A stretch of 63,471 bases of DNA, counting the filler, from Hausera hauseri (lineage: Eukaryota), in NCBI GenBank assembly GCA_046269625.1. It is 11 parts of 11 records of this genome, joined end to end, with 100 filler letters (N's around TTAATTAATTAA, not from the genome) between each part and the next. Parts side by side here need not be neighbours in the genome. Positions count along the whole stretch, not along the records: positions 40,976 to 47,056 come from JBJURY010144202.1; positions 47,157 to 51,495 come from JBJURY010628441.1; 9 more parts are not named here. The stretch is one strand, 5' to 3'. Shown here piece by piece: positions 45,998 through 51,595 of this stretch. Position 1 is the stretch's first letter. Each line of letters starts with the position of its first letter. The translations under genes and the position numbers were made by a program. The notes below the pieces were generated by a model. The model was not told the origin of the DNA and did no database searches. It worked only from the letters and a program-made list of their open reading frames with translations.

Positions 45998-47968
45998 ATA
46001 CAGAAATTTATTTGGCCGTTCAATACTGAATTTAAGAATTTATTTAGATATAACCAATAAATCATATAATCAATGATAAATTACAGTAATTTCACTAAAG
46101 TCTGCATTTGAATTTAGTTTGCCTTATTTTTCCAGTCCTTACTAAACGTATTGTACAATTAGTACATTAAAATACTTACGGAACATCTGATTGCTTTTAT
46201 TAAACGTGTCCTGTGTGAAATTTTGAAGATAAAACAAAAAAATGTAAAATTATTTAACAGTAAATTATACGAAAAATTTAATTTTTGAGTTAAAAATCAC
46301 CAATTTACATTAATGATTTACCTTAAAAGCACATGGTACATACCAAAGCAAATTCACTTTTCAAATTGACTATTTAAAGGTATTTTTCAGTACTATTTCC
46401 ACGGCTGTTGTCACATTGCACCTGTACATGTTTTGTTTATTTTTCTCTAAAAACTATTGTGCAGTAGAAAATCGAGGGATGGAGGGAGTGACGAACTGAA
46501 CTAAGTGACTGCTTGGTATTCCGTGGGTCTAGCCTGGACAACACAGTCTAAGATAATTGACAGAGAAACATTACCAATCATTGGAAAGCTGAGTCACTTT
46601 TATTAGACGGCCAGACAGTGCAGCCCAGGTTCTTCCACTGCATTCCAAATATCTGATTTAGCCGAAGGAGATTCTTGATACCCAAAAGCAATTTATTTAG
46701 TGGACAATACTTAGGAGTGTTCCCATGGAAGACTGTGGCACTTTTTGATCACACTGCACCTAACAGAAGATGACAAACAATTAGTGAAGTGTGTGAATGC
46801 TGTGTGGGGAGAATCCAGCACTGACTGGTGTTGATTTGTTACTGACTCAACAGTAGTGGTAGCTCAGTGATTGGGGTTCTGTGCCCGGTTGCATAAAGAT
46901 GTCTAAACTTTTTCCTTTAAGTGTAAAACTGAAGGAAATTCCTTTGACTCATGGGAAATCTTTCCTTAATATGTTGCATAAAATGCCTCGAGACGAATCA
47001 CTTAACTAAAAGAAAACGGTGAAGGATTTACTGCAGCCACTGAAGTTTAACGGCAGNNNNNNNNNNNNNNNNNNNNNNNNNNNNNNNNNNNNNNNNNNNN
47101 TTAATTAATTAANNNNNNNNNNNNNNNNNNNNNNNNNNNNNNNNNNNNNNNNNNNNAACTTGGATTCATGAGTAAGGATCAAGATCAAACAACACTAACG
47201 GAGATATGTAGTATGATAGAAGAAAAGAAATTCTACAAAAAAGAAACAAGTTAAGCGATCTTCAGCGAAGTTTAGCGAACATCCGTAGGGAAGGGATACA
47301 GAACCTAATGCAGAAACCGTTGAAGGAAATTTCAGCAGAAGAAATAGAAACATTAGAATTATGTAATGATCACCGGATTGCTTTGGCACCAACATTACAA
47401 TATTTACAGAATCCTGCAGAATGGACACCAGGCTTTGACCCACATTGCCATACCGAACTAACGGAAATNNNNNNNNNNTTGATGAGCGATGAAGCCAAAT
47501 TCATAAGCAGACTAATGGATACAATAGATCCGGACGCCAAAGTAATAAATCAAATGCACAAATTAATTTTATTATTAACAGAAATGACAGAAATGGACGA
47601 AGTAGCAGCGAAACGGGTAATAAATCGAATACGTCTGATAAAAGAAACCCGGTTACGCTCAGAGAAAAGACAACGCGAACTAAACGAATTACTGAGGGAA
47701 ACAGAAGTTTATAAGAACAAGTATTCTCTTACGGAATCCGAAATGAATAATAAAACGTAATTTATACAAAGATGGCAGAGACAGAATCGCAGAATTTACT
47801 AGCTTTCAAGAAAAAGCCCTGATACTGCCAGAAGAAATGTGCCGACTAATAAAATTGATACAACAAGCTTGCGGAAACGGAGATGGATTTAGGACATCCA
47901 TTATGAAAATCTTGCAACCGCAGATAAGAGAATTATGCGAAAGAGTCTAGGTTGGCCAAGCGGCATTA

Positions 47969-49222
47969 ATGAATTACGAATTACCTGACGCAGATAATGA
48001 TGCTGAGTGGGACGAATACCTTCAAGGTTTAAACGAGCAGAGCCAAAGAACTCCAATACAAATCTACAAGTCATCTATTGGTAATCAGAAAACAAAATTT
48101 GACGTACAAATGCTACTTGATCCCACAATAGCCGAAAGGGAATTGAGCAATGTGTTGAAAATAAACATAAGTGAAGATAGATTAAGGAAATTGGTTCCCA
48201 CCTTGACCAAGTTGTCCAGTGAAAACACTGCATACAGCGCAGTACCCAAATTGCTAATAAAAGAAAACGCCAAACTGTTGAAAAACAAACCAGACACTGG
48301 GATTAAAGTAAAGGTATCATCTGATGGAATGGACAATGAAGAATGTAAATGCACTACCTTCACCACCGTTGCGGATATAAAACAACGAATAATGGATAAG
48401 GAGGGTAAAGAAGGGGTCAATTACCGACTCTATTTTCGGGGTAGGATATTAGACAAGCTAAAATCCTTAGTAGATGTAGGGATTATATCCATAGAAGAAA
48501 GTCGAATAGTAGCAATAATCATCAGTGAGCAAACCAAAGATGAAGCCATGAGAAAAGCACAAACAGAGCGTTGTGTGAGAAAAATTATGGGGATACAGAA
48601 CGCTGCAATGTATTTCGAATACCAACAGACTGATAACGACAACCCGCAATACGATAAAAATTTAGTTCCTCTAAGTGAAACATTACCACCGATGAAACCT
48701 AAACGACCGGTCGGAAGACCGAGAAAAATAAAAGAAATTGATTATAATACATACCTAATTAGGGAATTGAAACAACTATCAGTACCAACCCCGAGTTTAT
48801 ATAACGAAGAACTAATTAAGCTAATGAGAGACTTAATTCGGATAGTTAATTATACTGGACTCCAAGATGACGTATTATCCGAGAAGGAAAAATTAATATA
48901 TAATATAGCCCGGGATGGCATGGAGTTAGAAGTCCAAGAAGGAAAAATCATTAGGGCCTACAAAGAGGCAGTCGGAAAACTAAATATGCACACAGATTAT
49001 TGTGTTGGAGGAGAATATGACACTGGAAAGGGAAAAAAAGGAGGAATAGTAGTCGTAGATTTTTACGAAACCGAGTTAAGATCCATGAAAGCAATGTTTC
49101 ATAGTGTTACCAAATTATTCACCGAGAATCCGAAGTGTCACATTTATGATGGCGCTTACCCGTTCCGGTATGGAGTCCACCTTCTAAGAGAGATTGCAAT
49201 TTCATCAAAATCAAAGAGTTAA
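47969..49222 (+). CDS. 417-aa ORF with ubiquitin-like domain (48302-48523), AT-hook (48701-48727) and the start of the glycoprotein region (from ~48965)
   Basis: [40 protein letters not shown] aligns to ubiquitin [49 protein letters not shown] is an AT-hook. [17 protein letters not shown]...IVVV follows. Confidence 0.8.
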   Translation: [417 protein letters not shown]

Positions 49223-50373
49223 AGTTTAACGAGGCAACCGGAAAACGTTATACGAATAAATTACACACTAAAACGAGATCAAGGGAAGACGTAATAGAAC
49301 ATCCCACACCAACGATATTAATATCAGATACACATAGATTAAAGTTCATCCGGAAGGAGATGTTAACACGCTGCGATGTATTTATGTATGCCACAAATTA
49401 TGAAGCATTTTTCGTAGCAGAAACTGAAATCAACATAAAAACCTATAATTTAAAAACGCAAGATATACGGATCGAGGATTATCTCAAAAATCAAGGCCAC
49501 TATTTCTATTATAAAGGACAGACCGGAATAGCAGAACTATACCACAAAATGATAACGAATGACTGCAGATTAGATACTGAAGTCATGGGAACCAAATTAA
49601 CCCTAATTTAAGGCAACCAAGAATTGGTATCACCAATAATACCGATGAAAAAAGGTGTTTTCGGACGGGTTACCGGAGAAATTCGATTAACATACGAATG
49701 CAAAAAAGAGACGTGCCGATCAATGTAGAAGAAAAAAGATGCATGCAAGAGTTACCAGTCATTTACGAGATTATGCCAAGATTGACAATGCAACTCACTA
49801 GAGTAATATTGGCAAACTCGACCGAGAAAACAATACTGAAAGAATGCAAAACAAGCTTAGGCGAACCTATATTTCTACGTAGTGGTACTGACGGGATAAG
49901 TTTACCTAATTGAGGTGCTGCTGTAGCACCAAGCAAGCTAACTGGAACTAATCTAATCAAAAGATACGGCCAACAAAGGAATCTATAGGCCAAAGGACAT
50001 AGAAGCCTTTAGGCAATTTTTAGCACTTCCGCGACAGAGAACTTATGAACTGAATCGAGCGATGTCAATGGTCATGGATGACACCCGTTTTCAAGCAAAG
50101 TTGGAATCACTACTTGGTGCTAATCACTATCAAAGAGTAACTTCAGAAATACTGTATAAGATTTGGGGAAGGTTTCTGATTTTCGGACAAGCTGCCTCTG
50201 GATTCCTAGCCATCTACTTCTTAGTCTAATTAATTAAGGCAGTAATCCAAGCCATTATCAATGGATATAAAATATTCACATTAACAGGATTCTCCTGCAA
50301 AATACTGACTGCAATTATCACAACTTTTTGTGAAAATGCTCAAGGCCTACGAAGAAAATCGATGGAAGAATGA
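48965..50373 (+). pseudogene. Chuvirus/Jingchuvirales-type (class III, gB-related) fusion glycoprotein, interrupted
   Basis: Motifs in the expected order: [100 protein letters not shown], then the TM region WGRFLIFGQAASGFLAIYFLV*LIKAVIQAIINGYKIFTLTGFSCKILTAI. Confidence 0.78.
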
Positions 50374-50999: not shown

Positions 51000-51345
51000 T
51001 GGGACAGTAGTAGAAGGGAGACCTTTCGTTAAAATACACATCGAAGATTGGGTAGTACATGACTTAATCAACACAAGATCAGAAAAATCATTTATGAAAT
51101 ACAAATCGATACCGACCACATTACGGGAACATCTATGCCCACCATTATCATCAGACCCAGGTAGCGTATGAGCATTTGAGCAAGTATCGAAGCTGAAATT
51201 TAAATGGACTCCTATCGTTTATATGATTGTCCAAGCGCTTCAACATGAATTTGCGATAATGGACCAGTTAACAGGTGATGTAGTGTTAGGTTGTGATATA
51301 TTGAAACAGATACCAGGTACGGCAATCGATGTGCACAACGGAAAA
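51000..51345 (+). pseudogene. Retropepsin (A2 aspartic protease) remnant
   Basis: GRPFVKIHIEDWVVHDLINTRSEKSFM (degenerate LIDTGS..S) and HEFAIMDQLTGDVVLGCDILKQI (D.ILG.D.L). Confidence 0.7.
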
Positions 51346-51595
51346 TTAATTGAGTATGAAACAATAAAAGGGACAAAAGTAATGAAGGAAATGAAATCGG
51401 GCGAAATGTGGATTCCAGTAGACGAGGACATTCCGCCAGAACTGAAATGATAATTTTTGCACAGATTCGTCAAGACGAAGACCTACAGGTATATTNNNNN
51501 NNNNNNNNNNNNNNNNNNNNNNNNNNNNNNNNNNNNNNNTTAATTAATTAANNNNNNNNNNNNNNNNNNNNNNNNNNNNNNNNNNNNNNNNNNNN

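What the first reader, a model, noticed from the sequence alone, without database searches (positions are those of the whole stretch)
47157..51495. Retroelement polyprotein with a chuvirus-type fusogen placed upstream of the protease, behind a ubiquitin-like domain and AT-hook
Seen: one intronless plus-strand coding run with the order coiled coil, UBL, AT-hook, glycoprotein ectodomain plus TM, ~200-aa linker, retropepsin. Known: chuvirus/herpes-gB-like env genes occur in BEL/Pao and Ty3/Gypsy elements but normally lie downstream of integrase. Giant LTR elements such as planarian Burro carry extra domains. Inference: this is a piece of an enveloped, possibly giant retroelement with a non-canonical gag-env-pro(-pol) order, where the fusogen is cut out of the polyprotein. 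It is the best candidate here for an undescribed virus-like system. Caveat: this copy is decayed, and RT/IN would lie beyond the contig end.
Basis: partly seen in the sequence, partly recalled or inferred. Interest (0 to 1): 0.88.

Follow-up and report, generated by a model that had tools for sequence, protein, structure and literature searches.

The report
Decayed Burro-like enveloped retrotransposon fragment
This short contig is a broken piece of a giant Burro-like retrotransposon, likely from a flatworm, whose herpes-gB-like fusion gene sits in front of its protease; the odd gene order is real and conserved in intact relatives, but it was already described in planarians.

Summary
The 4.3-kb contig encodes, in order, a helical stretch, a three-helix plus ubiquitin-like module, an AT-hook-like motif, a chuvirus/gB-type glycoprotein (PF24664, E 1.5e-20) with its membrane anchor, a 215-codon linker and a degenerate retropepsin. 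It is one copy of a many-copy family. Intact relatives show the order is native: in 25 of 25 long relatives carrying both glycoprotein and protease the glycoprotein comes first, and the fullest read Gag, zinc knuckles, UBL, AT-hook, Bcl-2 fold, signal peptide, gB-fold Env, protease(s), RT, RNase H, integrase in one frame. [quoted passage not shown] This copy is dead: it lacks the signal peptide, the first ~118 of 616 ectodomain positions and the Bcl-2 domain. Worth a second look: 13 of 14 complete relatives carry a further predicted membrane protein after integrase. Verdict: new member of a known kind; interest 0.25.

The parts
47168..47990 (+). Broken helical/charged stretch upstream of the UBL module; by position the spacer between Gag zinc knuckles and the module (inferred); no capsid or zinc knuckle in the contig
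   Evidence: 4 stops and a 10-N gap; no match to Gag profile or relatives; relatives have up to about 390 residues in this place
48143..48541 (+). Three-helix domain followed by an integral ubiquitin-like domain without a C-terminal di-glycine
   Evidence: Profile from relatives E 8e-12; phmmer to L002 E 1e-7; model pLDDT 78, ubiquitin fold Z 12.1; alignment
48701..48727 (+). AT-hook-like motif, non-canonical in this copy
   Evidence: Motif position; like motifs between UBL and glycoprotein in relatives; no Pfam AT_hook match
48860..48914 (+). Approximate place where the Bcl-2-like domain (if ever present), the signal peptide and the first ~118 ectodomain positions are absent, without a break in frame
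   Evidence: UBL end to profile position 119 is 124 residues here against about 190-510 in 13 relatives; no hydrophobic stretch before 50209
48914..50373 (+). Decayed chuvirus/herpes-gB-type (class III) glycoprotein with membrane anchor near 50182-50300; three frame changes and several stops
   Evidence: PF24664 E 1e-7 and 1.5e-20; four profile pieces; intact relative folds like gB; tree
50374..51015 (+). Cytosolic tail/linker of about 215 codons, no recognised domain
   Evidence: Translation; no match to relatives under E 0.4
51016..51312 (+). Degenerate retropepsin; catalytic motif substituted, one stop
   Evidence: Profile from relatives E 5e-8, hhalign E 1e-4, PF00077 E 0.11
54329..59107 (-). 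Separate contig, not shown to be linked: 3' half of an element of the same clade (RNase H, integrase, signal-like stretch, ectodomain, membrane anchor, exonuclease-like ORF)
   Evidence: Pfam; integrase 48% to P0001/P0151; tree; exonuclease-like ORF to L001 ORF2 E 5e-11

Best explanation
The contig is a decayed 5'-internal fragment of a many-copy, Burro-like Ty3/gypsy retrotransposon, likely from a flatworm, whose intact relatives encode Gag, UBL, AT-hook, a gB-fold glycoprotein, proteases, RT, RNase H and integrase in one reading frame and would release the glycoprotein by cleavage. Shown: the domain order in the window and in relatives, the gB, Bcl-2 and ubiquitin folds (as predicted models), a hydrophobic signal-like stretch before the glycoprotein in the relatives and an anchor after it. 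Inferred mechanism: during translation the internal signal threads the ectodomain into the ER, signal peptidase frees its N-terminus, the anchor stops transfer, and the protease-RT-RNase H-integrase part stays in the cytosol and is cut apart by the element's own protease(s). This would give Gag, Env and Pol from one mRNA without splicing or frameshift, as in flavivirus or alphavirus polyproteins (comparison from established knowledge). The UBL, lacking di-glycine, likely acts as an adaptor and the Bcl-2 domain likely dampens apoptosis (untested). This copy cannot do any of it: its glycoprotein has no signal peptide and is frameshifted, and its protease motif is substituted.
For: Top hits of the glycoprotein-protease frame among 1.84 billion proteins are long polyproteins. 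Glycoprotein before the first protease in 25 of 25 proteins that have both; before RT in 16 of 17 (42 proteins of 700+ residues examined; some are near-duplicates). Helix+UBL upstream of the glycoprotein in the same frame in 14. P0156 (4057 aa): zinc knuckles, ubiquitin, glycoprotein, ankyrin, protease, RT, RH, IN. Model of L001 region: Bcl-2 fold Z 14.5 (rmsd 2.7, 132 aligned) then gB (Foldseek E 5e-12; Z 10.1). Signal-like stretch before the glycoprotein start motif in 24 of 25 relatives. Window glycoprotein nests among the 26 polyprotein-embedded ones (support 0.87-0.93). 7542 contigs of one run cover all 30 bins at 80-100% identity, 2% running on into unlike sequence. Burro anatomy. Planarian class C1a env rows match by eye, nematode rows do not.
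Against: No Gag capsid, RT, integrase or LTR in the contig, so its own class rests on relatives only 27-37% identical in the glycoprotein. No Bcl-2 domain here. The window sits on a long branch (1.29) in the tree. No Burro sequence was compared by program; the papers read do not state that the Smed errantiviruses are Burro. The host is not shown: the window mixes contigs of apparently different animals. No listed contig of the run was seen to bridge 48855-49038 (only 8 pieces shown). Cleavage, fusion and particles are untested.
Confidence: 0.88

Rival explanations
1. A non-autonomous or envelope-less subfamily: the loss of signal peptide and ectodomain start is shared by most copies, and the family spread inside cells with a cytosolic, non-functional env remnant fused to Gag-UBL.
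For: The gap is in frame and lies in the only long open stretch (423 codons; chance 0.02-0.13 under uniform breaks). None of the 6 loose ends shown (of 802) lies at 48860-48914 and depth does not dip there.
Against: Only 6 of 802 loose ends and 8 of 7566 pieces were shown. All 25 relatives checked keep a hydrophobic stretch before the glycoprotein. One old copy with a private deletion explains it equally. This is a refinement of the best explanation, not an alternative to the family assignment.
Confidence: 0.3
2. A chance composite: a chuvirus glycoprotein endogenous element or a second element nested into a gypsy gag-pro region, or a misassembly of repeats.
For: Short-read contig of a repeat family; chuvirus glycoprotein insertions often lie beside gypsy fragments (PMC10084718); linker and 5' part match no relative.
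Against: The same order in single open frames of 25 relatives; the glycoprotein groups with those, apart from the stand-alone ~650-residue ones; even cover over the whole contig.
Confidence: 0.04
3. A lineage distinct from Burro that reached the same order separately, in a non-flatworm host.
For: GAG-ENV-POL elements are not monophyletic (PMC13524379); P0016, P0059 and L003 form a separate branch without UBL; the window is divergent and its host unknown.
Against: The shared helix+UBL module, AT-hook, and in relatives Bcl-2 and ankyrin repeat the Burro list; env motifs match planarian C1a rows by eye.
Confidence: 0.1

Closest known systems
Burro (GYPSM1) giant Ty3/gypsy elements of planarians, as described in Arkhipova and Yushenova 2019 (PMC6431247, section read whole)
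   Same: One polyprotein with Gag and CCHC knuckles, Ubi/SUMO-like domain, BCL-2, env in frame between gag and pol with hits to mononegavirus fusion proteins, protease, ankyrin repeats; relatives here reach 4844 aa against 4873 aa for Burro1.
   Different: This copy lacks Bcl-2 and the env signal peptide and is broken. AT-hook, the three-helix domain, multiple proteases (up to 7 in P0151) and a post-integrase membrane protein are not mentioned in that section; MATH and BIR domains were not seen in the relatives scanned. The original Burro paper could not be read.
GAG-ENV-POL errantiviruses with HSV/gB-type env (Chary and Hayashi, PMC13524379; sections 5, 6 first parts, 14, 22 and two supplements in part; Sacco et al. 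2022 only as cited there)
   Same: Ty3/gypsy pol, chuvirus-like gB-fold env placed before pol; six Schmidtea mediterranea entries whose env rows match this subfamily by eye.
   Different: They list intact elements and the passages found do not mention ubiquitin, AT-hook or polyprotein (0 occurrences).
Anakin (mosquito BEL/Pao with chuvirus glycoprotein; PMC7642597, passages)
   Same: Same Pfam glycoprotein family in a retroelement.
   Different: BEL/Pao backbone; P0095 shows the glycoprotein after a BEL-type DUF5641 domain and groups far from the window.

Membership tests
Ty3/gypsy (Metaviridae) | PR-RT-RNase H-IN order in pol | tested here: inconclusive
   Only PR is in the contig; met in 13+ relatives and RH-IN in the unlinked neighbour contig
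Ty3/gypsy (Metaviridae) | LTRs, primer-binding site, target-site duplication | not testable with these tools
   Contig is internal; no genome held; L001-L003 show no self-repeat
Ty3/gypsy (Metaviridae) | Gag capsid and CCHC knuckle | tested here: inconclusive
   Not in the contig, which begins about 330 codons before the UBL module; present upstream in 12+ relatives
GAG-ENV-POL gB-type errantiviruses | gB/chuvirus-type (class III) env | tested here: met
   PF24664 above cut-off; relative's model matches gB
GAG-ENV-POL gB-type errantiviruses | env upstream of the protease and pol | tested here: met
   Window order; 25 of 25 relatives with both
GAG-ENV-POL gB-type errantiviruses | Ectodomain flanked by signal peptide and membrane anchor (working env) | tested here: not met
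   Anchor present, signal absent in this copy; met in relatives. Filed as a decayed copy, not a working member
Burro in the strict sense | Ubiquitin/SUMO-like domain upstream of env | tested here: met
Burro in the strict sense | BCL-2-like domain between UBL and env | tested here: not met
   No room and no profile match in the window; found in 8 relatives (5 of them built the profile), fold confirmed for L001. Hence 'Burro-like'
Burro in the strict sense | Single polyprotein near 5000 aa, element over 30 kb | not testable with these tools
   Contig 4.3 kb; relatives 2600-4844 aa
Burro in the strict sense | Sequence kinship with Burro1-4 | tested here: inconclusive
   By-eye match to Smed errantivirus env rows; no Burro sequence held for a program
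Anakin (BEL/Pao) | BEL/Pao pol with glycoprotein downstream | tested here: not met
   Relatives carry gypsy-type domains with the glycoprotein first
Non-retroviral chuvirus insertion | Stand-alone glycoprotein grouping with chuvirus-type G | tested here: not met
   Groups with polyprotein-embedded glycoproteins

The most novel reading that the evidence does not exclude
Burro-type elements are enveloped viruses with a two-part coat: a gB-fold fusogen before the protease and a separate fibronectin-type-III-like attachment protein after integrase (sometimes duplicated), both cut from one polyprotein, a herpes-like division of labour not described for any retroelement; this window holds both halves of one such family.
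Probability: 0.2. Interest if true: 0.65.

Novelty: new member of a known kind. Interest (0 to 1): 0.25.

Why it matters
As it stands it adds a divergent, decayed family to a published but thinly studied group, and gives fold-level support (gB, Bcl-2, ubiquitin) for an anatomy that the 2019 review drew from profile searches. Its use is as a pointer: about 20 long open relatives lie unannotated in metagenome assemblies (one filed as a Flavobacteriaceae hypothetical protein), and they share a predicted second surface protein. If that protein partners the fusogen, it would bear on how gB-type fusion machines gained separate attachment proteins and on whether these giant elements move between cells.

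Tried and rejected
No own genome held. Word-index protein searches with the window's ORF and frame found nothing among longer proteins. No RNA holder listed. Atlas gave no useful hit for the UBL region (0.76). Alignment A2 beyond the UBL was an artefact of aligning a short to very long proteins and was dropped; an apparent match of 48570-48640 to the glycoprotein start arose there. Post-integrase ectodomains: no Pfam or PDB match; a profile of 11 relatives did not detect the neighbour contig's domain; the fibronectin reading is an Atlas lead at 0.82, under the 0.9 mark. Complex prediction of glycoprotein with post-integrase domain gave no answer. Troyka rejected: no envelope (PMC12440569). HEART search gave nothing relevant (listing only). 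Sacco 2022 and the original Burro paper were not held. Searches for a prior report of the fibronectin-like protein and of the UBL/Bcl-2/AT-hook set found none relevant, in an open-access library only. No earlier findings of this scan.
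Full report
What the region is. The window is a string of contigs joined by spacers, and the finding is one whole contig of 4339 bases. No genome is held for it. Its + strand is A-rich and only one stretch is open for long, 47951-49219.

Checking the observation. Frame by frame, with stops read as X, Pfam finds the Monjiviricetes fusion glycoprotein twice above its cut-off, ubiquitin just below it and a retropepsin only at E 0.11. 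Profiles made from relatives sharpen this: a helix+UBL module at 48143-48541, the glycoprotein in four pieces over three frames from 48914 to 50319, a single hydrophobic anchor near 50209, and a protease at 51019-51312; 300 shuffled frames score at most 4.0, 3.6 and 6.8 bits against 33, 134 and 21. The module, folded with 10 relatives, gives three helices and a ubiquitin fold (pLDDT 78); none of the 11 rows ends in di-glycine. The copy is broken: 13 stops over six segments (some near segment edges), three frame changes in the glycoprotein, a substituted protease motif. It also lacks the signal peptide and the first ~118 of 616 glycoprotein profile positions: only 124 residues separate the UBL from position 119, against about 190-510 in 13 relatives. 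The missing part holds five nearly invariant cysteines and, by inference from the model, the first fusion-loop hairpin.

It is a repeat family. One public run holds part of the words; 7542 of its contigs lie on the stretch at 80-100% identity, all 30 bins are covered, single positions are shown by up to 66 differing contigs, and 2% run on into unlike sequence. That run may be the window's own source and depth is no copy number, but the whole path is clearly present in many diverged copies.

Is the order native? A search of 1.84 billion representatives with the glycoprotein-protease frame gave 234 hits; the best ten are 748-2855 residues long. Pfam shows them to be retroelement polyproteins with the glycoprotein first. 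Three loci and ten more proteins extend the set. Among 42 proteins of 700+ residues, 25 carry glycoprotein and protease and all 25 have the glycoprotein first; 16 of 17 have it before RT (the exception, P0046, is 705 aa); 14 have the helix+UBL module upstream in the same frame (three of the 14 helped build that profile, five pairs are near-duplicates, and all were selected by glycoprotein similarity). The fullest, P0156, runs Gag, two zinc knuckles, UBL, AT-hook, Bcl-2-like, glycoprotein, protease, ankyrin, protease, RT, RNase H, integrase. A model of the L001 region (68 sequences, pLDDT 85.5) matches Bcl-2 proteins over residues 4-136 (Z 14.5) and herpesvirus gB over the ectodomain. A hydrophobic stretch precedes the glycoprotein start motif in 24 of 25 relatives (the 25th has one). 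In a tree of 90 of 164 glycoprotein hits (74 fragments or duplicates left out; 292 columns; midpoint root) the window falls, on a long branch, inside the clade of 26 polyprotein-embedded glycoproteins and apart from the stand-alone ones. No LTR was seen in L001-L003.

How it likely works. See Best explanation: internal signal, ectodomain into the ER, anchor, cytosolic protease-pol; release by signal peptidase and the element's proteases. The order and hydrophobic segments are shown; cleavage, fusion and particle formation are inferred.

What is known. [quoted passage not shown] Chary and Hayashi (PMC13524379; passages, sections 5 and 6 first parts, 14, 22) report GAG-ENV-POL elements with gB-type env in Nematoda, Bryozoa and Platyhelminthes, citing Sacco 2022 (not held). 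Their supplements list six Schmidtea entries (45 and 215 copies for two), whose env rows resemble the relatives and the window by eye, unlike the nematode rows on the same page. That is my basis for 'likely flatworm'; it is not a computed result. The original Burro paper was not available and may already note features I list as unmentioned. PMC10084718 (first two parts), PMC7642597, PMC5408684, PMC8532177, PMC12440569 and PMC13238120 were read in passages only.

What may be new. In 13 of 14 complete relatives integrase is followed by a signal-like stretch, 230-400 residues and a second hydrophobic stretch; L001 has an internal second copy (E 2e-8) and a downstream exonuclease ORF (PF00929 E 1e-5). 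The next contig of the window (51596-59108, - strand) has the same layout; its integrase is 48% identical to P0001/P0151 and groups with the clade against two other gypsy elements of the window (bootstrap 83; inner nodes weak), and its last ORF matches the L001 exonuclease. Linkage to the finding is not shown, and a profile of the relatives' ectodomains did not detect its domain. A fibronectin type III fold is only a lead. Two searches found no paper on it. Exonuclease ORFs in LTR elements are known from rotifers.

Verdict. Real, correctly read, conserved, and already described: a new, decayed member of the Burro-like GAG-ENV-POL kind. Interest 0.25.

Noticed in passing
window 51596-59108 (- strand): 3' half of an element of the same clade: RNase H, integrase, signal-like stretch, ectodomain with weak fibronectin lead, anchor, then an exonuclease-like ORF matching L001 ORF2; separate contig, linkage not shown.
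   Followed up: partly
L001 2-10279; P0151, P0008: Several retropepsin domains in one polyprotein (3 in L001, 4 in P0008, 7 in P0151), some after integrase; L001 has a second signal-ectodomain-anchor unit between proteases.
   Followed up: partly
L002 3058-3060: A single stop separates the Gag-UBL-Bcl-2 part from the signal peptide and glycoprotein, which continue in the same frame: a mutation or a read-through site.
   Followed up: no
P0002: A 2627-aa animal retroelement polyprotein is filed at NCBI as a hypothetical protein of a Flavobacteriaceae metagenome bin, likely contamination.
   Followed up: no
P0016 residues 110-300; P0015 N-terminal half: Stretches that look by eye like DEDD-type exonuclease domains upstream of the glycoprotein (recalled motif, no Pfam match).
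   Followed up: no
window 31436-36051 (+) and 36152-40875 (-): Two related decayed gypsy elements without env, about 74% alike, only 30-38% identical to the Burro-like clade in pol; used as outgroup.
   Followed up: partly
window 14356-25581: Higher-GC contig with a PF09004-matching ORF and pieces that look like fish LINE and DIRS repeats (recalled), suggesting the window mixes DNA of more than one animal.
   Followed up: no
window 25682-31335: Long array of short TTCG/TTCT-type units with internal N gaps.
   Followed up: no
window 8694-9302: ORF with a DEK C-terminal domain (E 5e-8) followed by a coiled-coil-like stretch.
   Followed up: no
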